Below, one piece after another: positions 2 through 32,565 of a stretch of DNA of 32,617 nucleotides. Numbering within the stretch: position 1 is the first letter of the stretch; the number at the start of each line of letters is the position of its first letter. The stretch is from an uncultured Gammaproteobacteria bacterium. Lineage in GTDB: Bacteria; Patescibacteriota; Patescibacteriia; Patescibacteriales; UBA12465. Where the stretch lies: contig CAYUWA010000002.1 of NCBI GenBank assembly GCA_964448505.1, forward strand, positions 61,733 to 94,349. Reading direction: 5' to 3'. The notes beneath the pieces are model-generated. The model worked only from the letters and a program-made list of their open reading frames with translations. It ran no database searches and was not told the origin of the DNA. A program made the position numbers and the translations under genes.

Positions 2-763
2 ACTAAAATAGAGAAAATTTTAGTAGAGGCCAGTGCAGAACAAAACGCCAACGGCAGTTGGTCAGATGCTTATGGCTATACAGCCGAGTACCTGGTAAAA
101 ACTGCGCCTGATGCAGAAATTTTTATTTATAACTCGGGTTGTTCAGAGGTCACCGATGGTCGGGATGACGAGAACGAAGACAATTGGTACATATTCAAGA
201 AACCAAATCTGTCTCCGATGCTGGAAGAGCGGAGAGAAGGTGCTCTTCGTAAAGTACATAATTTTTTTCGGGATATTAAAGCAATATCTGAGAATGATTA
301 TGTAGAGCTGTTTAATTCCGTTCTTGCCGCAGTAGAAATAGAAGATAAAGACATCTCTTTTTTTGGTGAGATTGGTCCTGATTGGTTAATTTCTGCTTAT
401 TCAACGAGCGGGTGTGCTTATTATGACGAGCGTTGGTGCTCTGTTTGGGCGGTTAATCCTGCCGATGATATTATTAAAATCGATAGTATCGTTACGGGCG
501 AAGATGTCGCCCAAAATGCTAATGGCTCCTGGGTTGATTCTTATGGTTATTATTTTAAATATCTTAAGAAAAAAGCTCCTGGCGCTCTATTCTTCATTGT
601 TAATGAAGGCCGCGATCGGCGCGCTGATCGCCAACCAAGCATATACGAAAATAGTTGGTCATTTCTCCGACCGTTAAGCCGGAAGGAGATTATGATCCAA
701 AAAATAAATTCTCAAAACAAACCCATAACACTCGGGGACGTTTTAAAGAATAGTTCTTGGTAG
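2..763 (+). CDS. hypothetical protein, 5'-partial (runs off the window start), with an internal duplicated module
   Basis: Frame 2 is open from nt 2 to the TAG at 761-763, so the ORF-track ATG at 218 is internal. The block at nt 8-205 (..AEQNANGSWSDAYGY..YLVKTAP..FIYNSG..NWYIFKKP) recurs at nt 470-673 (..VAQNANGSWVDSYGY..YLKKKAP..FIVNEG..NSWSFLRP). No family recognised. Confidence 0.7.
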   Translation, partial: TKIEKILVEASAEQNANGSWSDAYGYTAEYLVKTAPDAEIFIYNSGCSEVTDGRDDENEDNWYIFKKPNLSPMLEERREGALRKVHNFFRDIKAISENDYVELFNSVLAAVEIEDKDISFFGEIGPDWLISAYSTSGCAYYDERWCSVWAVNPADDIIKIDSIVTGEDVAQNANGSWVDSYGYYFKYLKKKAPGALFFIVNEGRDRRADRQPSIYENSWSFLRPLSRKEIMIQKINSQNKPITLGDVLKNSSW

Positions 764-1021: not shown

Positions 1022-2116
1022 TTATCTGAGAAACTTGTTAAAATTTTCTTTATTAACAAGATGTGTTTCTGATTCTTTGTAAATTTTATTGAATTTATGA
1101 AGGGCTGATGTTATATTCTCTTTGGAAAATTTACATTCAAAAGCGACCATATTTCCTTGATCTAGTTCAACGAGGTCTATTTCGCTTTTATCATAGGTTC
1201 TCCAAAAATAATGCGATGGATAATGTCCGCGGTTATGCATAAATTTCAATCTTTCAATGATAAAGAAATTTTCAAAAATTTTACCGTTATCATTTCTTAA
1301 TTCAAGCGGCGCAACATCTTGAGCTAAAGTATTTCTTAAACCAATATCCAAGAAGTAAACTTTATAAGATTTTTTAATTTCGGAACTTAAGTTTCTTGAG
1401 AAAGAGTATAAACGTTTAATAATAAATGCCTGCTCAAGTAAAGCAATATATCTTTCCACGGTCGCCTTGTTCGTATCAAGTATTTTTGCCAGTCTGTCCG
1501 TTGAGATTTGTGATCCTACTTCTCTGGCCAGAGTTATCGCCAGCTTTTCAAAAACAACCGGTTTACGAATTTGTTCAAAATTAAAAACATCTTTATAGAG
1601 ATAATTTGTCGTGATATTTTGCAAACGATCAAGTTTGTCGTTTTGATTTGCGGAAACGATTCCTGGGTACATGCCGAAAGTTAATATGCCATTAAGATCT
1701 CTGCCCCCAATTTCATTATATGAAAGAGGGTATAGCATAAATTCATAAGTTCTTCCCGTCATTGGTTCGTTTATTTTATTTGCTAAATCAAAAGAGGATG
1801 ATCCAGTGGCGATAATTTGTATTTGCGGGTATGTGTCAGTAAAATTTTTAAGAATAAGCCCGATGTTTTCAATCGTTTGAGCTTCGTCTAACACGACGAT
1901 CTTATAATCTTTGATTTTTTCATATAAAAGTTCCGGCTGTCTCGGGACGAGAACATTTCTTATTTCCAGAAGCTCACAGTTAAAGTGCCGCCCCCTATCT
2001 TTGTAGGGTTCAATAATTGTTTTTGAAAGAGTAGTTTTGCCTGATTGCCTCGGTCCGAGAATAATGATAACTTTACCTTGAAAGAGTTTTTCCTCAATTC
2101 TTGTCCTTATTTCGCG
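1022..2116 (-). CDS. AAA+ ATPase of the AAA_14 + DUF4143 type (COG1373-like); the open frame extends beyond the ORF-track start and is interrupted by an in-frame TAA near the 5' end (possible pseudogene)
   Basis: The ORF-track start (GTG at 1894) falls inside the Walker B motif (VVLDEAQ). The same frame is open up to nt 2116 and encodes Walker A GPRQSGKTT. The C-terminal part (..YFWRTYDKSEIDLVE..) is DUF4143-like. There is no ATG/GTG/TTG between 1894 and 2116. An in-frame ATG at 2131-2129 is separated from the frame by a TAA at 2119-2117. Confidence 0.85.
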   Translation of the reverse strand, partial: REIRTRIEEKLFQGKVIIILGPRQSGKTTLSKTIIEPYKDRGRHFNCELLEIRNVLVPRQPELLYEKIKDYKIVVLDEAQTIENIGLILKNFTDTYPQIQIIATGSSSFDLANKINEPMTGRTYEFMLYPLSYNEIGGRDLNGILTFGMYPGIVSANQNDKLDRLQNITTNYLYKDVFNFEQIRKPVVFEKLAITLAREVGSQISTDRLAKILDTNKATVERYIALLEQAFIIKRLYSFSRNLSSEIKKSYKVYFLDIGLRNTLAQDVAPLELRNDNGKIFENFFIIERLKFMHNRGHYPSHYFWRTYDKSEIDLVELDQGNMVAFECKFSKENITSALHKFNKIYKESETHLVNKENFNKFLR

Positions 2117-2208
2117 TTAATATATATGCATAAAATACAAATTTATTAATTTAGATAGTTTACTACCTAAATTAAGAACATCAAGCCAGAACCTAAAAGT
2201 CAAGCAAA

Positions 2209-2238
2209 CTTCGCCCTATGGATCTTGGCGGAGTTTTT
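2209..2238 (+). repeat. hairpin+T-run repeat copy (terminator-like / insulator)
   Basis: CTTCGCCCTATGGATCTTGGCGGAGTTTTT. It has the same orientation as 967-996 and differs only by a TC/CT swap in the loop. It ends 2 nt before the -35 of the AbiE promoter. Confidence 0.55.
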
Positions 2239-2240
2239 GT

Positions 2241-2269
2241 TTGACAAAAAATTACTTTTAGTATATAAT
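2241..2269 (+). promoter_or_regulatory. sigma70-type promoter of the abiEi-abiEii operon
   Basis: TTGACA (2241-2246), a 17-nt spacer, then TATAAT (2264-2269). This matches the full consensus and lies 39 nt upstream of the ATG at 2308. Confidence 0.65.
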
Positions 2270-2272
2270 ATA

Positions 2273-2306
2273 TATAGCTATAAATCATTATTAGTTTATA
2301 GATATA
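2273..2306 (+). promoter_or_regulatory. candidate operator: imperfect inverted repeat between the -10 and the abiEi start codon
   Basis: TATAGCTATAAA (2273-2284), a 10-nt spacer, then TTTATAGATATA (2295-2306), with 11/12 complementary. The AT-rich context means a chance match is possible. Confidence 0.35.
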
Positions 2307-2307
2307 T

Positions 2308-3081
2308 ATGAAAAATACAATATTATCCGAAAAAGACGCAAATTTAATATCTCAGTCCATAATAAAATATGGCCGTATTTTAGATATAAAAAAATTGATG
2401 ACTATTTTTTCAATTGAATATTCGGCGAGCGCTGCCCATAATCGCATAAACAAACTGGTGCGTTCAGGTTGGCTTATGCGGATTAGACAAGGACTTTATC
2501 TAATAATTGATAATTTGAGTGCCCGCGATCAAAATGATATTTCCTTGATACGTATCGCTAATGTCTTGGATCATAATTCTTATGTCAGTTTGGCGTATGC
2601 TTTAAACTATCATCAATTATTTGATCAATATAGTAGAACGGTTATTAGCATCTCCGATAAAATTAATAAAAAATATAATTTTGACGGACATCTTTATCAA
2701 TTTTCTAAAGTTAAGAAAGAAATGTATTTTGGTTTTACGGAAGAGTTAGATGATGGTAAAATTATTAAAATTGCTGAAGCCGAAAAGGCTCTAATTGACT
2801 ACCTCTATCTTGATAATAGCTTTTTCAGTGCCAGTTTAGTTTTTGAAAAATTACGTGATAATTATCAAATGCTTGATCTTGATAAACTGCAGGTTTACGC
2901 GGCGCGAGCCGGGACAACGATCAGTCGGAAAATCGGTTTTTTATTGGATGCGGCAGCGATTGATAGTACAAGACTATATCAAAGTTTGAAAAATAAAAAA
3001 GGTTTTAATCGTTTTACTTCTGAGTCTAAATTATTTAACGCCAAATGGCGAATTTATTATGATGAACGAATTATTAGATAG
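2308..3081 (+). CDS. abiEi: AbiEi-family antitoxin / transcriptional regulator (type IV TA system)
   Basis: N-terminal wHTH-like region ending in the ..RIRQGLYLI motif typical of AbiEi. It sits immediately upstream of an AbiEii nucleotidyltransferase gene and overlaps it by 23 nt. Confidence 0.8.
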   Translation: MKNTILSEKDANLISQSIIKYGRILDIKKLMTIFSIEYSASAAHNRINKLVRSGWLMRIRQGLYLIIDNLSARDQNDISLIRIANVLDHNSYVSLAYALNYHQLFDQYSRTVISISDKINKKYNFDGHLYQFSKVKKEMYFGFTEELDDGKIIKIAEAEKALIDYLYLDNSFFSASLVFEKLRDNYQMLDLDKLQVYAARAGTTISRKIGFLLDAAAIDSTRLYQSLKNKKGFNRFTSESKLFNAKWRIYYDERIIR

Positions 3082-3823
3082 AACGGAATTGACGTTCGCT
3101 AATAAAGCTTTAAAATATCCCCTTGCCATTGCCGAGAAGGATTATTTTTTAGCGTTCACTTCGAAAATTATTTTTGAATCGGTACTTTCTGGTCGGCTTA
3201 TTTTTAAGGGCGGAACTGCTTTATATCATATCTATCTTCCGCAACTCAGATTTTCCGAAGACCTGGATTTTTCTAGCAACGCTCAAAAAATAGAGCTCAG
3301 TGAATTAAAGAAAATTTTTGCCGATTCGGAATTTTTTGAAATTAAAAAAGAATATATTTCCGATGCGACAATAAAAATTGAGAAGTTGCAGTACCGCGGG
3401 CCCTTGGGTCTTGCCAATTCTTTAAAGGTTGAAGTTGATTTTCTGCAGAATGTTATTTTGCCGCCTTTAGAGCTTGATTACCAAAATGTTTATGGGGTTG
3501 AAACTAAAATGCGGGTCATGGATATCCGCGAAATTGCCGCTGAAAAAATTCGCGCAATGAATGATCGTATTCGTTATCGAGATTTTTATGATTTTGCGAT
3601 GATTCTTCTGAAGTTAAAAATAGATTTAAAAGAAGTTGAGGCTCTTTTACCGAAAAAAGAAGTTAGAAAAAACATGAGCCTGGAAAATATTTTAAATAAT
3701 TGGCTTTTGGCTAAACAAGAAAAACTAAAGGAATCATCTTCTATATATTTTTCTGAAGAATTAAGCGATGTGCAAATTGAAGAGCAGCTTAATAAGTTAG
3801 AGTTTGCCCCCATCTTATTATAA
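3059..3823 (+). CDS. abiEii: AbiEii/AbiGii-family nucleotidyltransferase toxin (DUF1814)
   Basis: Hallmark motifs FKGGTALYHIY and RFSEDLDFS near the N-terminus. The ~250-aa size and the gene overlap with abiEi also fit. Confidence 0.9.
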   Translation: MMNELLDRTELTFANKALKYPLAIAEKDYFLAFTSKIIFESVLSGRLIFKGGTALYHIYLPQLRFSEDLDFSSNAQKIELSELKKIFADSEFFEIKKEYISDATIKIEKLQYRGPLGLANSLKVEVDFLQNVILPPLELDYQNVYGVETKMRVMDIREIAAEKIRAMNDRIRYRDFYDFAMILLKLKIDLKEVEALLPKKEVRKNMSLENILNNWLLAKQEKLKESSSIYFSEELSDVQIEEQLNKLEFAPILL

Positions 3824-6489: not shown

Positions 6490-6798
6490 ATGATTAAGTT
6501 TGAACATTACCCGGGAGTAGCGCCTATAGAAGATATTAAGGAACATAATCCAAGAGAGTCGGTTGATGTTGGACCTTCATTTACTACTCAAGGCAAACTT
6601 CAACAAAGGATTTCTGAACTAAACCATGTGTGCGGAGTATTAGGAATACAACTTGAGAAGGGAACGCTGACCAAGATTCAGGAAGAGAAATTGAATCTGG
6701 CAGTAGCAGAGCTAAATAATCTTGAAAACCAAGCGAAAAAACTGAAAGAAGTGTGTGGTTTAGATCAAACCATGGAATCAAAAGCTTTTCAAAATTAG
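6490..6798 (+). CDS. hypothetical small protein (102 aa, predicted coiled-coil C-terminal half)
   Basis: It is the only long ORF in the ftsK-murE gap and fits the gene spacing. No recognisable motif. Confidence 0.55.
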   Translation: MIKFEHYPGVAPIEDIKEHNPRESVDVGPSFTTQGKLQQRISELNHVCGVLGIQLEKGTLTKIQEEKLNLAVAELNNLENQAKKLKEVCGLDQTMESKAFQN

Positions 6799-15914: not shown

Positions 15915-17405
15915 ATGTTTAAAACAAGTTTTAAGAAATTGTCTTTTATATTTTCCTTACGCTTATTTTTAGGCTCTCTTTTGTTGATTATCTTTCTAGT
16001 TTTTTTGTTTTTAAAAGTCGTTCCTTTCGGGAAGATAACTTATTACCGCGACTATTCCGACAAGCTTCGTTCCGGCAAAGGTTTTATCTATGGATTTACT
16101 CCGAGCGAGCGAATATTTATTTCAAAAAGCGGTGAGCCAAGAATAATCGGCGACCCGGTTTATTTTTCTTTATTTACGCCTAGAACTTTTGATAAGGCCA
16201 AAGTAACTGTAGAGTATAAGGACAATCTTAGTGCGGAAACGCCGATAATTGAAGCCGGTGTTTTAAGTGACAAAATTGTTTGGAATTATGATTTAAAACC
16301 GCTCCAAAATAAGATTATTGATTCTTTACGTTTAAACTGGGCTGAGATTAGTAGCGGCGATGTGTCTTTGTTGCAAAAAGATAATAACTATAATGATTTT
16401 CAGGCGTTTAAAAATGATTTAGAAAAGGGGAGCTTAAAAAACTGTCCGGAGGGGCCAAGAAACTGCTTAGCATTTTATAATTATTCTTTTGACTTAGATA
16501 ATTCTTTAAACGCCAAGAATGAAATAAATAGTTCTTTGCCGCTGGAATTAGATATACCGCTTCGCGGAGCGCACCAATTCTTCTTGTACCTTAATTCGGA
16601 AGAGCTTAGCTTGGATTTTAGCTTTAGCGATTTAAATCAAGACAAAGATCTTGACCCGATTACGGTTAATATTTATTACGGCAACAAATTGTTAGATACC
16701 CTGTTTTTAGCTGATAATAATTTGGCGTCTAGCGCTAAAGTAATTGAGAATCGGAGTTTGTCTTTTAAGAAAAGCAATTTAAAACCGGGGTTTTATAAGG
16801 TTGAGTTAAAAGTTAGCGATGATATTGTTATTAAGAAGATTAAATCTTCGGTTAATAAAATCTCGTTTATCAATAAAGTCTGGCCGGTGTCTAATTCGGG
16901 TGGGGTGGTTCTTTATTCTGATGCTAATTATTTGCAAGTTAAAGCATACAGCCCGGCTAGCCTCCAATCACTGGAGTCGGGCGGGCTACAACTAGTTATT
17001 GATGAAGCTTACAGACAATTTTATTTTAACTTGCCGGGGGAAAACAAAATTAAAGAAATAAAGATTAAGAAAGACGATTTGATTTTGGAAAATAATGGAG
17101 TTTTTTCTTGGTCGCCAAATAGCCTTATTAATCCTGGTTTTACTAAGGTTGATCGGTTTTTCAAACCCTCAGAAAATATAAAATATATTGTCTCCCGCTA
17201 TGATACTCCGCAAATTAAAGATAATTTTAAGTTCGCAAGCGCCGAATTTAATCTTCGCGGCGTTTATCGCGAGAAAGGTAAGTATAGCTTTATGATTTCT
17301 ATTCCCGGATTACGTGCCGAAGAAAATATTAACAATTATTTAGAAATAAAAAGTATTAAGATAGAGTTAAGCGGCAGAACCTTATGGCAAAAAATATTCA
17401 ATTAA
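15915..17405 (+). CDS. hypothetical membrane-anchored protein (N-terminal TM helix, large extracytoplasmic domain)
   Basis: Long ORF. It is the only gene in the window with a canonical SD (GAAGGAGAT before the ATG). Hydrophobic segment LFLGSLLLIIFLVFLFL. No known domain recognised. Confidence 0.75.
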   Translation: MFKTSFKKLSFIFSLRLFLGSLLLIIFLVFLFLKVVPFGKITYYRDYSDKLRSGKGFIYGFTPSERIFISKSGEPRIIGDPVYFSLFTPRTFDKAKVTVEYKDNLSAETPIIEAGVLSDKIVWNYDLKPLQNKIIDSLRLNWAEISSGDVSLLQKDNNYNDFQAFKNDLEKGSLKNCPEGPRNCLAFYNYSFDLDNSLNAKNEINSSLPLELDIPLRGAHQFFLYLNSEELSLDFSFSDLNQDKDLDPITVNIYYGNKLLDTLFLADNNLASSAKVIENRSLSFKKSNLKPGFYKVELKVSDDIVIKKIKSSVNKISFINKVWPVSNSGGVVLYSDANYLQVKAYSPASLQSLESGGLQLVIDEAYRQFYFNLPGENKIKEIKIKKDDLILENNGVFSWSPNSLINPGFTKVDRFFKPSENIKYIVSRYDTPQIKDNFKFASAEFNLRGVYREKGKYSFMISIPGLRAEENINNYLEIKSIKIELSGRTLWQKIFN

Positions 17406-27289: not shown

Positions 27290-27694
27290 ATGCCAAAATT
27301 TATTATATTTAGCGACGGCGGAGCAAGAGGCAACCCCGGTCCGGCCGGCATCGGTGCGATTATTTACGATGAAAAGAATAAGATCGTTTCGGAATTGTCC
27401 GAGTATTTAGGTGTCTCAACGAATAATCAAGCCGAGTATAAAGCTTTAATTATGGCCTTAAAAAAGGCGGCTGCGCTTAGAGGAGAGGAGCTTGTTTGTT
27501 ATTTAGATAGCGAACTCGTCGTTAAACAACTTAATCGGGAATACAAAATAAAAAATAAAGACCTGGCGCCTTTATTTTTAGAAGTTTATAATTTAAGCTT
27601 AGGTTTTAAGAAAATATCATTTGTTCATATTCCGCGAGAGAAAAATAAGGAAGCAGATAGACTTGCCAACAAAGCGATGGATAGAGGGGAATAA
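27290..27694 (+). CDS. rnhA: ribonuclease HI family protein
   Basis: SDGGARGNPGPAGIG.., ..NNQAEYKAL.., ..DSELVV.., ..NKEADRLAN (DEDD catalytic pattern). Confidence 0.9.
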   Translation: MPKFIIFSDGGARGNPGPAGIGAIIYDEKNKIVSELSEYLGVSTNNQAEYKALIMALKKAAALRGEELVCYLDSELVVKQLNREYKIKNKDLAPLFLEVYNLSLGFKKISFVHIPREKNKEADRLANKAMDRGE

Positions 27695-27696
27695 TA

Positions 27697-29199
27697 TTAT
27701 TTAACGTGGAGGTGGCTGCCGGTCGCTTTCTCAGTCTGTACACCGTCGCAATTAGGATATTCATTCAGGACACTTAGTCCTGATTTTTGTAAAATAGAGA
27801 TTAATTTTTTTACATTATCGCAAGTAGCATTCGCGCTATAAAGAGCAACATCAACGCAAGTTCCATCGTTATGGCATAGAGAAGCGTGATCGATAGTTTT
27901 CGGGTAAGCTTCAGTAATTTGCCATTCAAGGCCATTAGAATTATTCCAAGCAGTGTTTAATTTATTTAGTAAAGAATTATTGGCAAAACGATGGCTGTCT
28001 TTTGTTGGTATTTTTGTTATTTCAGAACAGTCGTTACAGGTGCCAGAGCAAGAGCCGATTGTTAATTTTCCGACACCAGTTGACGACAACGCTTTATCTA
28101 GAGAGTCACCGCTCCAAATATCAATTCTTTTACCTTTAATCGCTCCGCCCCTATCAGTTATAGTATAAGTTTTTCCCTTGAAACAAACTTTTTCTCCAAA
28201 AGGAAGATTGCTACAATCTGGCCCGGCTATATCTCCATCTTTTGGTTCGCTATCACTCGCTGTTTTATTGCAATAAGGGGTATTTTTATCAAACTTTTTA
28301 CAAGGCTTATAGTCTGGAAAAGTTTTTTTGTACATGGGGCAAGTTTTTGACTCATCTCGACCTTGGGGACAGGAACATTGCATCCCGACTATACAAAAAA
28401 AATCGTCACTGTCTTCCCATGCCGGTTTATAGTACCCGGTAGCATAGAAGTCAACACCATTTTTTAACTCCTCGTCCGTTGCACAACCGGAACTAATAAA
28501 CTTAGAAGCGGCGGCGGATGCTTTAGCGCTTGATAAAGCTTCAGCTTTTTCCAGTCTTCCGACAGTAATCGGTTGGAAATTAACTAAATCGGGATTGATT
28601 TGAGCAAGGATTATATAAGAAGCTAAAAGAATAACCAGACCGGAAACACTTCCGATAATAAGTTCTTTAGCTTGCGTAACTTTTGAAGCATCACCGCCGG
28701 AAACAAGCCAAAGTATGCCGCCCGCCATTAGAACTAGGGCAGCGAGAATTCCGGCGATTTTAACGCCGTAGTCGTAAATATTAATAATATATTCGCTTAG
28801 CCAAAATACCTTGCATTGATAATTACCGCTTTCATCAATTTCACATTGCGGTTGACTTAATTTTTCTTGCAAGCCGTTTATATCTACTTGTAAAGTAGGA
28901 ATAACGAATTTAGGGGCCTCCTGGGTTGAAGCATTAAAATAATCGCCTGTACAGCAGCAGACATATCTAGTATTAGTAAATGCAAAACTGGTGGTGGTAG
29001 GCTTTGTCCCGGAACAAATTTCACCAGCCCTTGCTTGATGTTCATCACTATAACAACCCTGAGTTGTTTGTGAAGAACTTAATTCGGGGTTAGTATTAGT
29101 TGTTTCAGCTCTCCATGCGCATTTGGTTTCCGCATTAGCCATCAGTGGCGATAGAAATAAAGCTAAGAAGGAAAATATAAATATTTTTTTTATTTTCAT
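27697..29199 (-). CDS. secreted Cys-rich protein: VirB2/T4SS-pilin-like two-helix hairpin fused to MltA/3D-like and LAS (M15-like) peptidoglycan hydrolase domains
   Basis: Signal peptide ..PLMANA/ETK. 8 Cys in residues 27-129. Pilin-like hairpin at residues 134-211 (IAGILAALVLMAGGILWLVSGGDASKVTQAKELIIGSVSGLVILLASYIILAQINP). ATGYYKP plus ..TITDRGGAIKGKRIDIW.. (3D/MltA-like). C-terminal H-x6-D (CHNDGTCVD) and HLH (Zn-peptidase LAS pattern). Confidence 0.8.
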   Translation of the reverse strand: MKIKKIFIFSFLALFLSPLMANAETKCAWRAETTNTNPELSSSQTTQGCYSDEHQARAGEICSGTKPTTTSFAFTNTRYVCCCTGDYFNASTQEAPKFVIPTLQVDINGLQEKLSQPQCEIDESGNYQCKVFWLSEYIINIYDYGVKIAGILAALVLMAGGILWLVSGGDASKVTQAKELIIGSVSGLVILLASYIILAQINPDLVNFQPITVGRLEKAEALSSAKASAAASKFISSGCATDEELKNGVDFYATGYYKPAWEDSDDFFCIVGMQCSCPQGRDESKTCPMYKKTFPDYKPCKKFDKNTPYCNKTASDSEPKDGDIAGPDCSNLPFGEKVCFKGKTYTITDRGGAIKGKRIDIWSGDSLDKALSSTGVGKLTIGSCSGTCNDCSEITKIPTKDSHRFANNSLLNKLNTAWNNSNGLEWQITEAYPKTIDHASLCHNDGTCVDVALYSANATCDNVKKLISILQKSGLSVLNEYPNCDGVQTEKATGSHLHVK

Positions 29200-29200
29200 A

Positions 29201-30073
29201 TTAAAGTTTATATTTTTCTAGATTATAATCGGCTATTTCTTGAATTGCTTTTAAATCGTTTTCTTTAAGATGTTTGAATCTTCCTTGAGCGCTTAAGTAT
29301 TCTTTTACTGGCTTACTTTTAAAATTAGAATTTATACTTGAGGCGCTTAATTTTCCGTTAGTATATTCTAGGAGCGGATATAATCCGGTTTTTACGGCGA
29401 GTTTCCCCATAAAAATCGCGTCGTCGGTTTTTATTTTCCAACCGGGAACACAAGGAGCAAGAATTTGGATATATGAAGGACCTTTAGCTTCTAGGGCTTT
29501 TTTAATTTTGTTAGTTATATCGTCTGGAAAACCGGCCGTACTTTGGGCGACGTATTTTAAACCGTGCGACAGAGCAATTCCTATCATATCCTTTTTTCTT
29601 TGAGTTGAACCGATAGAATTTTCGCCGTCCGGAGTTGTTGTCGTTGAAGCGCCATAAGGCGTCGCGCCCGAAGCTTGGATTCCGGTATTAGAATAGGCTT
29701 CGGTATCGTAACAGACGTATAAAATATTTTCTCCCCTTTCCCACATCCCGCTAATAAGACCCATTCCAATATCATAAGTTCCGCCGTCTCCTGCTTGAAC
29801 TAATACTTTAGTTTTTTTGTCCCCTTTCTTATTTAAAGCGGCAAGAATTCCCGAAGCAACCGAAGAAGCATTTTCAAATAAAGAATGAATCCAGGGAAGA
29901 CCCCAGGCGCTTTGCGGATAAGCGGTTGTTGTTACCTCTAAACAACCGGTTGCGTTAGCAATTATAACATTCTCGTTTAATCCACGCATAACCGCTTGAA
30001 CAGCAGATAATTGTCCACAGCCGGCACAAGCATTATGACCGGGAGATATAAATTTGTTTTGATTAGTTTTCAT
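29201..30073 (-). CDS. porB: pyruvate:ferredoxin oxidoreductase, beta (TPP-binding) subunit
   Basis: PGHNACAGCG near the N-terminus, the GDGGTYDIG TPP motif, and ~290 aa. Confidence 0.93.
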   Translation of the reverse strand: MKTNQNKFISPGHNACAGCGQLSAVQAVMRGLNENVIIANATGCLEVTTTAYPQSAWGLPWIHSLFENASSVASGILAALNKKGDKKTKVLVQAGDGGTYDIGMGLISGMWERGENILYVCYDTEAYSNTGIQASGATPYGASTTTTPDGENSIGSTQRKKDMIGIALSHGLKYVAQSTAGFPDDITNKIKKALEAKGPSYIQILAPCVPGWKIKTDDAIFMGKLAVKTGLYPLLEYTNGKLSASSINSNFKSKPVKEYLSAQGRFKHLKENDLKAIQEIADYNLEKYKL

Positions 30074-30084
30074 AAATTATCTTT

Positions 30085-31155
30085 TTATTCCGTATAACAA
30101 CAGTATAAATCATTCGTGGCACATTGGCGGCCACCGCTATTATCGCGATAATATTTTTTGATCGTCGTCCCCAGTCTGCTACAGGTTATAGAAGAGCAGT
30201 AAGCGCCAGGTTCTGTTCCGCAGTGTGACGATTCCTCTCCTTTTCCTCTGTAACAATATCCTTCGTAACAAAAACCATTTAATGAAATATCGTTAAACAT
30301 TCCTGAATTTACAATATCCGGGCAACTTTCCCCGTCCTTTATATCTGTGCAACTAGATACTTTGCCCCTACATTCCGAGATGTTATAACAAGAACCGTCT
30401 TTTTTTTCAGACAATATTTTTATTTCATTATTAAAGTAACTTCCACAGTTTTCGCGTATTTCTTGGGTGTTTTCACTCATAAAATTAAAACAAAATTCAA
30501 CTTTTCCCTCGCAATCATTTTTAATTAAACAACTAATTTTATCTTTGACGCAAGTCCTCCCAACAACTGAGTATGTAAATTCATTCGTGGATTCATAGAA
30601 TGTTGTTCCTACGAAAGCGTCACATTCTTTCTGGCTCATTATTTCCGCTGTGTTAGATGATTGGCAACAACCCTCAACAACCTTTTCTATATAACTTAGG
30701 CCGATTGGTCTTAATGCCAATAAATCAGGATTAATTGTGTTTAAAATTATCCAAGAGCTAAGTAAAATTACTAGTCCGGAAATGCTTCCGATAATAAGCT
30801 CTTTCGCTTGTCCGACTTTTCCGGAATCGCCTCCCGAAGTTAACCAGATAACGCCTCCAGCCATTAAGACTATTGCCGCTAAAATCCCTGCCGCCGCCAT
30901 GCCGTAGTCGTATAAGCCTTTAATATATTTAGCAAGTAAGTCGCTTTTCATTTGGCCATTGCTTTCTTGCCCGACATTTACGCTATCGCCTTTATTAACG
31001 AGATTAGGAATACTGACATTGGGAGAAAACTTTAAAGACTCTTTAATATCGGCGGAGGCGATTTTCGGGGCGGAGATTAAAAGACCAAAGCCGATTATTT
31101 GTAAGACCAATAAGGAAAGAAGAGAAATTTTAATAAATTTAAAATTTAATTTCAT
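30085..31155 (-). CDS. secreted protein: VirB2/T4SS-pilin-like two-helix hairpin followed by a ~195-aa domain with 20 cysteines
   Basis: N-terminal signal/anchor. Residues 74-151 are 54/78 identical to residues 134-211 of the 27697..29199 product. C-terminal region with 20 Cys (GCCQSS.. to ..LYCCYTE). The start overlaps the porA stop (ATGA). Confidence 0.8.
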   Translation of the reverse strand: MKLNFKFIKISLLSLLVLQIIGFGLLISAPKIASADIKESLKFSPNVSIPNLVNKGDSVNVGQESNGQMKSDLLAKYIKGLYDYGMAAAGILAAIVLMAGGVIWLTSGGDSGKVGQAKELIIGSISGLVILLSSWIILNTINPDLLALRPIGLSYIEKVVEGCCQSSNTAEIMSQKECDAFVGTTFYESTNEFTYSVVGRTCVKDKISCLIKNDCEGKVEFCFNFMSENTQEIRENCGSYFNNEIKILSEKKDGSCYNISECRGKVSSCTDIKDGESCPDIVNSGMFNDISLNGFCYEGYCYRGKGEESSHCGTEPGAYCSSITCSRLGTTIKKYYRDNSGGRQCATNDLYCCYTE

Positions 31156-32300
31156 ATTTTTCCGATAAATTTTATTTGTTTATTTTTAAGCGGTAAATCT
31201 TTAACTATCTTTTTAATCATTTCAGTTCTAATATCTCTACCGCCAAGACCGACGATATAGTTTTTTATATTTTTATTACCGCTTACCGCCGTTTTAATAT
31301 CGGTATAAAGCGGTCCGGCTTGACCGAGGCTTATCGCTTTTTCAATCACGCCAATATTTTTTATATTCTTTAGAATTTTATTTATTTCTTCTCCGGGAAA
31401 AGGGCGATAGGTTTTTATCTTTAAAACGCCGACTTTCTTATTTCCTTTTAAAGTTTCACGAATCGTTCCGACAATAGATCCCATAGCAATTAAAATACTT
31501 TCCGGATTTTTCGGCCCGTAATATTCTATTAAGCCGTTATCGCTCGTTTTAAGGTTAAAAACTTTTTTTAATAAACTATATTCTTGTTTAATTACGCTCA
31601 GGCTATTTATTAAATCGTTATGAAGACTTTCCCGAGCTTCAAAATAATATTCCGGCGAGAAAAAAGAGCCGAGAGTTACCGGATTTTTAGGATTTAAATA
31701 AGTTCCCGTTTCAGGCTTATAATAAGGTAAGAATTTTTTTATTTCTTTAGACTCCGGAATTATAACCGCTTCATAAGAATGAGTAAGAATAAAACCATCA
31801 ACATTTACTAGAACCGGCAGTTTTAATTTCTCCGCTATTTTATAAGCTAAAATATGTTGATAAATTGCTTCTTGATTATCTTCGGAAAATAACTGAATAA
31901 ATCCGGAATCCCTAACGCTCATGGCGTCGCTATGATCATTCCAAATATTAATTGGCGCGGAAACGGCGCGGTTAGCGCAGGTCATAACTATCGGCAGGCG
32001 CATACCGGCAATATTATAAACAACCTCGTTCATTAGTAATAGCCCTTGCGAACTAGTTGCGCTATAGGTACGAACGCCGGTCGCGCTCGCGCCAAGAACA
32101 ATAGAGGCGGCGGCAAATTCGCTCTCTGCTCTTACATACTCATAATTAGCTTGCCCCTCCGCTTTAAATTTAGCCAAGTCCTCAACGATATGGGTTTGCG
32201 GTGTAATCGGGTAAGCGGAAACGACATCCGGCGCAATATTTTTTATTACTTGCGCTATCGCGTTAGAGCCCTCCAGAAATTGTTTTTTATTTTTAATCAT
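31152..32300 (-). CDS. porA: pyruvate:ferredoxin oxidoreductase, alpha subunit
   Basis: ..GSNAIAQVIKNIAPDVVSAYPITPQTHIVE.. N-terminal POR signature and ~380 aa. Confidence 0.93.
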   Translation of the reverse strand: MIKNKKQFLEGSNAIAQVIKNIAPDVVSAYPITPQTHIVEDLAKFKAEGQANYEYVRAESEFAAASIVLGASATGVRTYSATSSQGLLLMNEVVYNIAGMRLPIVMTCANRAVSAPINIWNDHSDAMSVRDSGFIQLFSEDNQEAIYQHILAYKIAEKLKLPVLVNVDGFILTHSYEAVIIPESKEIKKFLPYYKPETGTYLNPKNPVTLGSFFSPEYYFEARESLHNDLINSLSVIKQEYSLLKKVFNLKTSDNGLIEYYGPKNPESILIAMGSIVGTIRETLKGNKKVGVLKIKTYRPFPGEEINKILKNIKNIGVIEKAISLGQAGPLYTDIKTAVSGNKNIKNYIVGLGGRDIRTEMIKKIVKDLPLKNKQIKFIGKI

Positions 32301-32307
32301 AACAAAT

Positions 32308-32565
32308 TTAATAATCTTTTCTCATTTCTATCGCCTTAACCGGGCATTCTTTAGCGCAGAGCCCGCAGCCCTTACAATAATCAAAATCAGTTTGCGGTTT
32401 TAATTTAGAATTTATCATTTTCATTTCAATACAAGCCTCGGGACAGATTTTAGCACAAAAAGAACAGCCGATGCACTTTAAATTATCGGTTACCGGTTTT
32501 AAGGTCCGCCAATTGCCGGTCTTATTATTTAGAGATGAATTTTTCTTGGCGATTAGATTTTTCAT
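32308..32565 (-). CDS. porD: pyruvate:ferredoxin oxidoreductase, delta subunit (2x[4Fe-4S] ferredoxin)
   Basis: Two CxxCxxCxxxCP clusters: CIGCSFCAKICP and CKGCGLCAKECP. 85 aa. Confidence 0.9.
   Translation of the reverse strand: MKNLIAKKNSSLNNKTGNWRTLKPVTDNLKCIGCSFCAKICPEACIEMKMINSKLKPQTDFDYCKGCGLCAKECPVKAIEMRKDY

What the first reader, a model, noticed from the sequence alone, without database searches (positions are those of the whole stretch)
27697..29199. Pilin-like membrane hairpin fused to two different peptidoglycan-hydrolase domains
The 500-aa product reads, in order:
- A cleavable signal peptide.
- A region with 8 Cys, including a CCC triplet.
- A hairpin of two hydrophobic helices joined by a short GGDASKVTQAKE loop and ending in INPDL (nt 28567-28800). 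I recognise this as the VirB2/TrbC-type 'T4SS pilin' module that is widespread in CPR genomes.
- A segment with ATGYYKP and TDRGGAIKGKRIDIW (nt ~28102-28467), matching MltA/3D-domain lytic transglycosylases.
- A C-terminal segment with H-x6-D (CHNDGTCVD) and HLH (nt 27700-27987), the zinc-ligand pattern of LAS/M15 (VanY-like) peptidases.

With the signal peptide removed, both flanks of the hairpin face outward. A glycan-strand cutter and a peptide-stem cutter would then be displayed on a pilin-type anchor. For an epibiotic or ultra-small bacterium this would be a plausible tool for breaching a host or neighbour cell wall, or for remodelling its own wall around a pilus. I do not know of a described fusion of this kind.
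Basis: partly seen in the sequence, partly recalled or inferred. Interest (0 to 1): 0.8.

Follow-up and report, generated by a model that had tools for sequence, protein, structure and literature searches.

The report
Pilin-anchored double cell-wall-cutting enzyme
An ultra-small (Patescibacteria) bacterium encodes an exported protein in which a strongly conserved pilin-type membrane hairpin carries two different cell-wall-cutting enzymes, and related genomes keep the hairpin at the same chromosomal spot but swap the enzymes, an arrangement I could not find described in the literature.

Summary
ORF 27697-29199 (-) encodes 500 aa:
- a signal peptide;
- an 8-Cys beta domain;
- a two-helix hairpin of the T4SS_pilin / Mbov_0395 family;
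- an MltA/YuiC-type "3D" lytic-transglycosylase domain, with the catalytic Asp (D360) and sugar-binding Asp (D349) invariant;
- a C-terminal LAS zinc-peptidase domain.

The last domain is not VanY-like. Its nearest relatives by fold and by profile are Hedgehog N-terminal domains (Foldseek TM 0.69; profile E 4e-6). The full catalytic set is invariant: H443-x6-D450, H496-x-H498, E480 and H438. No Pfam model covers it, yet it has 733 cluster representatives, and 128 of the 147 examined sit behind a pilin hairpin.

In nine syntenic genomes the same slot (DsbA-porGDA-pilin-porB-[slot]) holds the same module with different cargo: 3D, 3D+LAS, LAS, VanY or NlpC/P60. The hairpin is as conserved as housekeeping neighbours (72-91%), whereas the N-domain is not (28-62%).

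The domain identities and outward topology are well supported. Pilus assembly and the target wall (own or host) are unresolved. No T4SS genes lie nearby. This is a new variant of known kinds, of moderately high interest.

The parts
27697..29199 (-). Whole gene: a 500-aa pilin-module protein carrying two peptidoglycan-hydrolase domains (stop codon 27697-27699).
   Evidence: ORF list. 176 homologues. AF2 model with mean pLDDT 83.4.
29131..29199 (-). Sec-type signal peptide (aa 1-23), predicted cleavage ANA|E.
   Evidence: Hydropathy and the AxA site. The hydrophobic N-terminus and AxA are conserved in homologues. This is a rule-based inference; no SignalP was run.
28804..29130 (-). N-terminal extracytoplasmic beta-rich domain with 8 Cys (aa 24-132). 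Its fold family is unknown and it evolves fast.
   Evidence: AF2 strands 27-131, with pLDDT mostly 84-97 over residues 31-80. C27/49/62/81/82/119/129 are at least 90% conserved. Identity across syntenic genomes is only 28-62%. No Pfam or PDB match.
28582..28803 (-). Two-helix hairpin (aa 133-206) of the T4SS_pilin / Mbov_0395 pilin-like family. The loop is SGGD-ASK and the C-terminal cap is INPDL.
   Evidence: Pfam PF18895: 25.3 bits against a cut-off of 26.6, and 74/76 relatives match. NF045849 matches 35/41 hairpins. AF2 helices 133-166 and 171-201. Identity across syntenic genomes is 72-91%.
28486..28581 (-). Linker of about 32 aa with two short helices between the hairpin and the first enzyme domain (aa 207-238).
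   Evidence: AF2 secondary structure.
28048..28485 (-). MltA/YuiC-type '3D' lytic-transglycosylase domain (aa 239-384) with a Cys-rich insertion of roughly 70 aa. Key residues are T254, D349 and D360.
   Evidence: Pfam 3D: 19 bits in the query, 34/76 relatives match, best E 5.4e-8. Foldseek: MltA 2gae E 4.8e-3 prob 1.00, YuiC prob 0.97. YuiC alignment places D349 on YuiC D151 and D360 on YuiC D162, the catalytic Asp. Both are invariant in 76 sequences.
27700..28047 (-). Hedgehog-like LAS zinc-peptidase domain (aa 385-500; core 405-500). Conserved set: E430, H438, H443-x6-D450, E480, H496-x-H498.
   Evidence: AF2 model of the domain alone, pLDDT 89.7. Foldseek: Shh-N 3d1m E 6e-4, TM 0.69; then Ply500, LdcB, MepA, VanY. 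Profile against PDB sequences: Shh E 3.9e-6. hhalign against Shh-N: E 4.6e-6. Invariant residues in 38 diverse members.
30085..31155 (-). Paralogous pilin-module gene (356 aa) lying between porA and porB. It has a signal peptide, a hairpin and a variable Cys-rich C-terminal domain with no recognisable enzyme domain.
   Evidence: Pfam T4SS_pilin 32.4 bits, which passes. Its hairpin is 60% identical to that of the 500-aa protein. It occupies the same position in all syntenic relatives.
29201..30073 (-). porB (TPP-binding subunit of pyruvate:ferredoxin oxidoreductase). It is the immediate upstream neighbour, and its stop codon lies 1 nt before the start of the hydrolase gene.
   Evidence: Pfam TPP_enzyme_C. 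Junction sequence. In relatives the stop and start codons overlap.

Best explanation
**What it is (about 0.9 confidence).** This is a Sec-exported, disulfide-rich surface protein of a Patescibacteria (Falkowbacteria-like) bacterium. After the signal peptide is cleaved, a T4SS-pilin-family helical hairpin sits in the cytoplasmic membrane with its short loop inside and both flanks outside. The C-terminal flank carries two intact enzymes. One is an MltA/YuiC-type lytic transglycosylase, which cuts glycan strands and has D360 as its catalytic acid. The other is a Hedgehog-like LAS zinc peptidase, which probably cuts stem peptides or cross-links. Its predicted zinc ligands are H443, D450 and H498, with E480 and H438 catalytic.

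**How it works (inferred, about 0.45).** The hairpin is more than a passive anchor. I propose it docks the enzymes to, or co-assembles them with, the pilin-family / T4SS-like envelope apparatus. Glycan and peptide bonds would then be cut only locally, opening the producer's own wall where that apparatus has to pass. That is the job done in monoderm conjugation systems by two-domain VirB1-like hydrolases such as TraG and PrgK, here fused directly to a pilin-family subunit. Because only a hole is needed, the bond specificity is interchangeable. That would explain why relatives carry 3D, LAS, VanY or NlpC/P60 cargo at the same locus.

**Shown versus inferred.**
- Shown here: domain identities, conservation of catalytic residues, cargo swapping, and strong constraint on the hairpin.
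- Inferred: topology, enzyme activity, association with a T4SS or pilus, and which wall is cut.
For: **Architecture and folds.** The supporting results are.

**Catalytic residues.**
- D349 and D360 are invariant in 76 sequences. They map to YuiC D151 and D162, equivalent to MltA D297 and D308.
- E430, H438, H443, D450, E480 and H498 are invariant in 38 diverse members. They align with Shh E127, H135, H141, D148 and E177; the H-x-H is matched by motif only. The roles of the Shh residues are described in PMC6027127.

**Topology.**
- There is a signal peptide plus two hydrophobic helices, and all 24 Cys lie in the flanks.
- A DsbA-like gene heads the operon in all eight relatives.

**The hairpin has a specific role.**
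- It is 72-91% identical across genomes in which porB is 75-84% and RecJ 62-77% identical. The adjacent N-domain is only 28-62% identical.
- 35 of 41 hairpins match a conjugation pilin-like family.

**Interchangeable cargo at one slot.** The VanY, NlpC/P60, Amidase_2 and C39_2 domains were verified directly.

**Precedent and need.**
- Monoderm VirB1-like proteins combine a transglycosylase with a peptidase.
- Most Patescibacteria that have VirB2-like pilins lack a VirB1 homologue (PMC12102498).
- The linker between hairpin and enzyme is only about 32 aa, so a membrane-resident form can reach only the producer's own wall.
Against: - No VirB4 or any other T4SS gene lies in the 32.6-kb window, nor within +-10 kb in the eight syntenic relatives. 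The genes sit inside a pyruvate:ferredoxin oxidoreductase operon.
- The hairpin shows no detectable sequence similarity to any solved T4SS pilin, and there is no Pfam TrbC/VirB2 hit.
- The query's own T4SS_pilin and 3D scores fall below Pfam's cut-offs.
- The first Asp of the 3D triad (YuiC D129) appears to be replaced by an invariant IAGP. This is my reading of the motif, not a structural alignment.
- A fast-evolving N-domain and rapid cargo turnover among close relatives fit an outward-directed conflict or host-adaptation role at least as well as an own-wall role.
- No enzyme activity, metal binding or localisation has been measured.
Confidence: 0.45

Rival explanations
1. Trans-acting wall breacher. 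The hairpin is extracted from the membrane and incorporated as a minor or tip subunit into a T4SS-type pilus, or is exposed at the contact zone. This displays the two enzymes so that they cut the peptidoglycan of a host or neighbouring cell. The variable N-terminal domain would bind the target surface.
For: - The layout resembles a polymorphic effector: a conserved hairpin (72-91% identity), a fast-evolving N-domain (28-62%), and non-homologous cargo swapped at one orthologous slot.
- In the one manipulated Patescibacterium, the T4SS and its pilin array are essential for epibiotic growth (PMC10633639; PMC12857230).
- Predatory bacteria do secrete MltA-like 3D enzymes and DD-endopeptidases into prey (PMC10127604).
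- Both termini of the hairpin face outward, which is compatible with surface display.
Against: - It needs an unverified step, namely polymerisation of a subunit of roughly 50 kDa. By my own estimate, about 40 kDa of appended domains per subunit is too bulky for a homopolymer.
- The operon contains no small 'major' pilin.
- No immunity-like gene follows the slot; the convergent RNase H gene starts 2 nt away.
- The locus sits in the core genome and is co-oriented with central metabolism genes.
- The hosts of this lineage are unknown.
Confidence: 0.3
2. Ordinary housekeeping autolysin. The hairpin is simply the lineage's way of tethering wall hydrolases to the membrane, with no link to a T4SS or pilus. 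The enzymes remodel the producer's wall during growth and division.
For: - The locus is chromosomal, single and syntenic, next to murJ, a Mur ligase and ftsK, and co-oriented with POR genes.
- The organism makes peptidoglycan, as shown by MurJ and the Mur ligase.
- From general knowledge, domain shuffling of catalytic modules on a constant anchor is usual among autolysins and endolysins.
- T4SS_pilin is the most abundant Pfam domain in freshwater-specific protein clusters, which hints at a general-purpose module.
Against: - A passive anchor should conserve hydrophobicity rather than sequence. Here the hairpin is as conserved as porB and LepA, and the loop and INP cap are near-invariant.
- The hairpin family is otherwise known from conjugative elements.
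- Housekeeping enzymes rarely change bond specificity between close relatives.
Confidence: 0.2
3. Non-catalytic or released form. Either the domains act as peptidoglycan-binding adhesins (pseudo-enzymes), or the enzymes are cleaved from the hairpin and act as a diffusible lysin or bacteriocin.
For: - Hedgehog-type LAS domains can lose catalysis and still function; Drosophila Hh lacks the motif (PMC6027127).
- The segment at 387-404 is a low-confidence linker and could be a processing site.
Against: - Every catalytic and zinc-binding residue is invariant across the family. That is not expected for a pseudo-enzyme.
- No protease or processing signal is evident.
Confidence: 0.05

Closest known systems
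Two-domain VirB1-like cell-wall hydrolases of monoderm conjugation T4SSs (TraG of pIP501, PrgK of pCF10; CwlT of ICEBs1 from my own knowledge)
   Same: One membrane-anchored, extracytoplasmic polypeptide combines a glycan-strand cutter with a peptide cutter. They belong to the T4SS world to which the Patescibacteria T4SS is homologous (PMC12102498).
   Different: The domain families differ: SLT or muramidase plus CHAP or NlpC/P60 there, against 3D/MltA plus Hedgehog-like LAS here. The anchor is a pilin-family hairpin rather than a single TM segment or signal anchor. The gene lies in a POR operon rather than in a T4SS cluster.
Patescibacterial VirB2-like pilins / Pfam T4SS_pilin (PF18895) / NCBIfam Mbov_0395 pilin-like protein
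   Same: Signal peptide plus a two-helix hairpin with the G-G-x-x-x-K...AK loop and the INP cap. [quoted passage not shown]
   Different: Described pilins are small and carry no enzyme, and many lie near virB4. This one is 500 aa, with 110 aa before and 294 aa after the hairpin, and has no T4SS neighbour.
YuiC (B. subtilis) and MltA (E. coli): 3D-domain lytic transglycosylases
   Same: Double-psi beta-barrel fold. The catalytic Asp and the -2 sugar-binding Asp are conserved within the motif TDxGGxIxGxRIDxW.
   Different: There is a Cys-rich insertion of about 70 aa with 10 Cys. The first Asp of the triad is not evidently conserved. MltA's domain B is absent. The Pfam score is below threshold in the query.
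Hedgehog N-terminal signalling domain, 'bacHh' and M15A DD-peptidases (LAS family)
   Same: Shared fold (TM 0.69), H-x6-D and H-x-H zinc motifs, and the catalytic Glu and His. Similarity is detectable at sequence-profile level, E 4e-6.
   Different: Identity is only about 18%. The Ca2+-binding acidic cluster of Shh (WDEDG) is replaced by YPPT. There is an insertion of about 12 aa between the Glu and H-x-H. Conserved cysteines are present. The domain sits at the C-terminus of a pilin-module protein. No Pfam model covers it.
Modular type IV pilins (for example Streptococcus sanguinis PilB/PilC) and polymorphic toxin systems (both from my own knowledge, not tested here)
   Same: The principle is the same: a conserved filament or trafficking module with functional domains grafted on and exchanged.
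   Different: Type IV pilins are a different pilin class with a class III signal peptide and a single N-terminal helix. Polymorphic toxins come with immunity genes, and none is seen here.

Membership tests
Pfam T4SS_pilin (PF18895) / NCBIfam NF045849 Mbov_0395 pilin-like | Profile score above the curated cut-off | tested here: inconclusive
   The query scores 25.3 bits against a cut-off of 26.6. 74/76 relatives match at E<0.01, best 1.9e-8. The paralogue scores 32.4 bits. NF045849 is matched by 35/41 hairpins, best E 3.9e-7, but below its cut-off of 40 bits.
Pfam T4SS_pilin (PF18895) / NCBIfam NF045849 Mbov_0395 pilin-like | Signal peptide followed by a two-helix hairpin with a short loop | tested here: met
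   Hydropathy. AF2 helices 133-166 and 171-201.
Pfam T4SS_pilin (PF18895) / NCBIfam NF045849 Mbov_0395 pilin-like | Encoded with T4SS genes (virB4 and others) | tested here: not met
   None in the window, and none within +-10 kb in eight syntenic relatives. The rest of the genome was not examined.
Pfam T4SS_pilin (PF18895) / NCBIfam NF045849 Mbov_0395 pilin-like | Polymerises into an extracellular pilus | not testable with these tools
   This needs microscopy or biochemistry.
VirB2/TrbC pilins proper (PF04956; solved T-, F- and R388-type pilins) | Detectable sequence or profile similarity | tested here: not met
   No PF04956 hit. A hairpin profile of 41 sequences finds no T4SS pilin among PDB sequences. 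No VirB2 or TraA appears among the top Foldseek hits.
3D domain / MltA-like lytic transglycosylases (PF06725) | Profile match | tested here: inconclusive
   The query scores 19.0 bits against a cut-off of 23.8. 34/76 relatives match, best E 5.4e-8.
3D domain / MltA-like lytic transglycosylases (PF06725) | MltA/YuiC double-psi beta-barrel fold | tested here: met
   Foldseek: MltA 2gae E 4.8e-3 prob 1.00; YuiC 4wlk prob 0.97. The region has pLDDT above 92.
3D domain / MltA-like lytic transglycosylases (PF06725) | Catalytic Asp (MltA D308 / YuiC D162) and sugar-binding Asp (D297 / D151) | tested here: met
   D360 and D349 align to them and are invariant in 76 sequences.
3D domain / MltA-like lytic transglycosylases (PF06725) | Third Asp of the triad (MltA D261 / YuiC D129) | tested here: inconclusive
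   The expected 'AvDP' segment reads as an invariant IAGP. No residue-level structural alignment was available.
LAS / Hedgehog-DD-peptidase zinc peptidases | H-x6-D and H-x-H zinc-ligand motifs | tested here: met
   H443..D450 and H496-L-H498. H443, D450 and H498 are invariant, and H496 is at least 90% conserved, in 38 diverse members. The motif definition is from PMC6027127.
LAS / Hedgehog-DD-peptidase zinc peptidases | Catalytic Glu (Shh E177) and His (H135) | tested here: met
   E480 and H438 are invariant and aligned to them.
LAS / Hedgehog-DD-peptidase zinc peptidases | Fold | tested here: met
   Foldseek's top 23 hits are Hedgehog-N (E 6e-4, TM 0.63-0.70). Ply500, LdcB, MepA and VanY follow.
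LAS / Hedgehog-DD-peptidase zinc peptidases | Zinc binding and peptidase activity on peptidoglycan | not testable with these tools
   This needs a biochemical assay.
   No hit in the query. No hit in 38 domain homologues apart from one Peptidase_M15_3 match at E 0.11. True VanY cargo does occur in other alleles of the slot (P0108, P0114).

The most novel reading that the evidence does not exclude
The T4SS_pilin hairpin of Patescibacteria is a general delivery platform for a polymorphic set of wall-degrading effectors. On this reading, enzyme-bearing pilins are extracted from the membrane and built into, or onto the tip of, a T4SS-type pilus. The variable N-domain recognises the host surface, and the swappable cargo (3D, Hedgehog-like LAS, VanY, NlpC/P60, amidase, C39) drills through the host wall. 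That would give the essential 'pilin arrays' of epibiotic Patescibacteria a concrete biochemical function. It would also reveal a large bacterial reservoir of Hedgehog-N-like peptidases.
Probability: 0.25. Interest if true: 0.85.

Novelty: new variant of a known kind. Interest (0 to 1): 0.62.

Why it matters
Patescibacteria depend on other cells, and in the one tractable species the T4SS and its pilin genes are essential, yet nobody knows what the pilins do. Most of these genomes also lack a recognisable VirB1 wall hydrolase.

This locus shows that pilin-family hairpins are physically fused to intact peptidoglycan hydrolases, and that the cargo is exchanged at a fixed chromosomal slot. That gives a directly testable link between the pilin family and wall cutting. 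Possible tests include zymograms, muropeptide analysis, localisation, and CRISPRi or Tn-seq in cultivable relatives.

The work also defines a large LAS peptidase family that Pfam does not model (733 cluster representatives). Its closest solved relatives are animal Hedgehog signalling domains, which bears on the bacterial ancestry of Hedgehog.

Tried and rejected
1. The word-indexed homologue search with the isolated C-terminal domain found nothing. The exhaustive profile search was needed instead.
2. Searches against PDB sequences found nothing useful with the single whole protein or with a 3-sequence C-terminal profile. Only the 38-sequence profile reached Hedgehog.
3. The VanY/M15 label was rejected.
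4. Similarity of the hairpin to solved VirB2/TraA-type pilins was not found.
5. I tested a 'Rosetta-stone' idea, that L005's two adjacent genes are the 3D half and the LAS half of the window's protein. It was rejected. The 456-aa gene shares the N-domain and hairpin (53% identity) but has a different, unidentified C-terminal domain and no 3D domain.
6. A mobile-element or ICE context was rejected. The window holds core genes (rpoB/C, ftsK, murJ, lepA, recJ, rnhA, POR), and the locus is syntenic in nine genomes.
7. No tRNAs were found. Promoter and terminator scans were uninformative: terminator-like sites were at chance level, and nothing convincing follows the gene.
8. Literature searches for pilin-hydrolase fusions in CPR/Patescibacteria found none. 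The searchable library holds only open-access papers and bioRxiv.
9. The fold of the N-terminal Cys-rich domain was not identified.
Full report
**Observation.**
- The signal peptide is MKIKKIFIFSFLALFLSPLMANA|E.
- Eight Cys, including the C81-C82-C83 triplet, lie in residues 24-132.
- Two hydrophobic helices are joined by GGDASKVTQAKE and end in INPDL.
- The motifs ATGYYKP, TDRGGAIKGKRIDIW, CHNDGTCVD and HLH are all present.
- All 24 Cys lie outside the signal peptide and the hairpin.
- The start codon is 1 nt after the porB stop. In relatives the two genes overlap.

**Organism and setting.** The window is ordinary chromosome: ftsK, a Mur ligase, rpoB, rpoC, an ADP-forming acetyl-CoA synthetase, murJ, lepA, recJ and rnhA. 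On the minus strand lie porD-porA-[pilin-module gene]-porB-[this gene]. Source names for homologues are Candidatus Falkowbacteria, Moraniibacteriota and 'Patescibacteria group'.

**Pilin hairpin.**
- Pfam T4SS_pilin scores 25.3 bits in the query, against a cut-off of 26.6. The 356-aa paralogue at 30085-31155 scores 32.4 bits.
- 74 of 76 family members match.
- 35 of 41 diverse hairpins match NCBIfam's Mbov_0395 'pilin-like conjugal transfer protein'.
- AlphaFold2 (76-sequence alignment, mean pLDDT 83) gives helices 133-166 and 171-201.
- Neither a hairpin profile nor Foldseek finds any solved VirB2/TraA-type pilin. 'T4SS pilin family' is therefore supported, but 'VirB2/TrbC-type' is not demonstrated.

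**First enzyme (aa 239-384).**
- Pfam 3D scores 19 bits in the query, below the 23.8 cut-off, but matches 34 of 76 relatives, best E 5.4e-8.
- Foldseek's top hits for the full model are MltA (E 4.8e-3, prob 1.00) and YuiC (prob 0.97).
- The profile aligns ItDsGggIkGkRiDiw with YuiC VADTGSAIKGNRLDLY.
- According to the YuiC structure paper, YuiC D162 (MltA D308) is the catalytic carboxylate and D151 (D297) binds the -2 sugar. These correspond to D360 and D349, both invariant in 76 sequences.
- The first Asp of the triad seems to be replaced by an invariant IAGP. A Cys-rich insertion of about 70 aa interrupts the barrel.

**Second enzyme (aa 385-500).**
- No Pfam family matches.
- A model of the domain alone (pLDDT 89.7) hits Hedgehog N-terminal domains in the first 23 ranks (E 6e-4, prob 1.00, TM up to 0.70). 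Ply500 endolysin, LdcB, MepA and VanY follow, which together make up the LAS fold.
- An exhaustive profile search found 733 cluster representatives at E<=1e-3 and 172 at E<=1e-10.
- A 38-sequence alignment has invariant E46, H54, H59, D66, E96 and H114, with H112 at least 90% conserved. In the query these are E430, H438, H443, D450, E480, H498 and H496.
- That profile hits Shh, Ihh and Dhh directly among PDB sequences (E 3.9e-6 to 1e-3). The alignment pairs these residues with Shh E127, H135, H141, D148 and E177. hhalign against Shh-N gives E 4.6e-6.
- H141, D148 and H183 are the Shh zinc ligands, E177 is the catalytic base, and H-x6-D plus H-x-H define the Hh/DD-peptidase family.
- The domain is therefore a Hedgehog-like LAS peptidase (HhL), not a VanY-type one. 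It lacks Shh's acidic Ca2+ cluster.

**Architecture census.**
- Among the 120 listed full-length hits:

| Architecture | Proteins |
|---|---|
| N-domain-pilin-3D | 74 |
| N-domain-pilin-HhL | 25 |
| pilin-3D-HhL (this protein, P0002, P0003) | 3 |
| pilin-3D plus a longer C-terminal domain | 7 |
| other cargo | 11 |

- The longer C-terminal domain is a divergent HhL (hhalign prob 93%, E 2.9e-7).
- The other cargo was verified as VanY, NlpC/P60, Amidase_2 and Peptidase_C39_2, plus a weak SLT_3 match.
- Of 147 HhL proteins examined, 128 have a pilin hairpin upstream.

**Genomic context, the most informative result.** Eight relatives share the order DsbA-porG-porD-porA-pilin-porB-[slot]-RNase H(convergent)-recJ-lepA-murJ. 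The slot's cargo differs between them:

| Genome | Cargo in the slot |
|---|---|
| window, L001, L002 | 3D + HhL |
| L003 | 3D + divergent HhL |
| L004 | 3D only |
| L005 | two genes: unknown domain, then HhL |
| L006 | VanY |
| L007 | NlpC/P60 |
| L008 | HhL |

No T4SS gene and no immunity-like gene is nearby in any of them. Identity to the window's proteins is as follows:

| Protein or region | Identity to window |
|---|---|
| LepA | 80-93% |
| porB | 75-84% |
| RecJ | 62-77% |
| slot hairpin | 72-91% |
| slot N-terminal domain | 28-62% |

The hairpin is thus constrained like a housekeeping protein. That is more than a passive anchor needs, while the exposed parts vary.

**Mechanism.**
- The well-supported steps are Sec export, an out-in-out hairpin, and two intact extracytoplasmic hydrolases stabilised by disulfides. 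A DsbA gene heads the operon in relatives.
- The inferred step is what the hairpin does. I favour, at about 0.45, a local wall-opening role tied to the pilin-family / T4SS-like apparatus. This would parallel the two-domain VirB1-like hydrolases of monoderm T4SSs. Most Patescibacteria with VirB2-like pilins lack VirB1.
- The linker of about 32 aa lets a membrane-resident form reach only the producer's own wall.
- The main rival, at about 0.3, is display on a pilus to breach a host wall. The effector-like variability favours it, but it needs an unverified polymerisation of a bulky subunit.
- A plain housekeeping autolysin (about 0.2) fits the core-genome location. It fits the hairpin conservation and the cargo turnover poorly.

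**Novelty.** The 2025 survey of Patescibacteria T4SSs reports VirB2-like pilins and arrays but no enzyme fusions. The T4SS review, the Cell 2023 genetics paper and other candidate papers do not report them either. Databases label these proteins 'hypothetical protein', 'pilin' or '3D domain-containing protein'.

All the components are known families, so this is a new variant rather than a new kind. What appears undescribed is the pilin-hydrolase platform, its cargo swapping at a fixed slot, and a large HhL family that Pfam does not model.

Noticed in passing
window 27697-32565 (minus strand); L001-L008: Two pilin-module genes are interleaved with the subunits of a four-subunit pyruvate:ferredoxin oxidoreductase, in the order porD-porA-pilin-porB-pilin-hydrolase. 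Stop and start codons overlap or abut. In relatives a DsbA-like gene and porG lie upstream. The order is conserved in nine genomes. Why surface proteins are embedded in a central-metabolism operon is unexplained.
   Followed up: partly
window 30085-31155 (-): The 356-aa paralogue has a hairpin 60% identical to that of the 500-aa protein. Its C-terminal region of about 210 aa has 20 Cys and no recognisable domain. In relatives the hairpin stays 69-87% identical, but the tail varies in length (277-418 aa) and in sequence.
   Followed up: partly
L005 8623-9993 (+): An extra pilin-module gene (456 aa) sits in the slot of one relative. It shares the N-domain and hairpin (53% identity) but has an unidentified C-terminal domain of about 200 aa with no Pfam hit.
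   Followed up: no
window ~27690-27700: All genes from about 2.3 kb to 27694 are on the plus strand, and all from 27697 onward are on the minus strand. The convergent rnhA and hydrolase genes are separated by only 2 nt. Cumulative GC skew peaks at the same place. This could mark a replication terminus or merely the strand switch. In the complete genome CP066698.1 the locus lies at about 58-60% of the 977-kb record.
   Followed up: no
window 1022-3823: An AbiEi/AbiEii-type toxin-antitoxin pair lies at 2308-3081 and 3059-3823. Next to it, at 1022-1894 (-), is a DUF4143/AAA_14 ATPase ORF whose AAA_14 match starts at profile position 67, so it may be N-terminally truncated.
   Followed up: no
window 218-763, 6490-6798, 15915-17405 (+): Three ORFs of 181, 102 and 496 aa have no Pfam match at E<=1e-3. 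The 496-aa ORF lies directly after rpoC.
   Followed up: no
proteins P0135, P0238, P0190/P0194, P0235/P0262 (one search hits): Unusual HhL architectures occur. Some have very long N-terminal regions before the hairpin (983 and 1109 aa). Others have the hairpin at the N-terminus followed by HhL and Ig-like (He_PIG) repeats. Two proteins carry tandem HhL domains.
   Followed up: no
L003, L004, L006-L008, positions 1 to ~1400: Upstream of the syntenic block, relatives encode a giant protein of 2,600-2,800 aa (faint CBM_4_9 match) next to a small protein of about 200-230 aa with a faint-to-weak TSP3_bac match in four of the five loci. These may be further surface proteins of this lineage.
   Followed up: no
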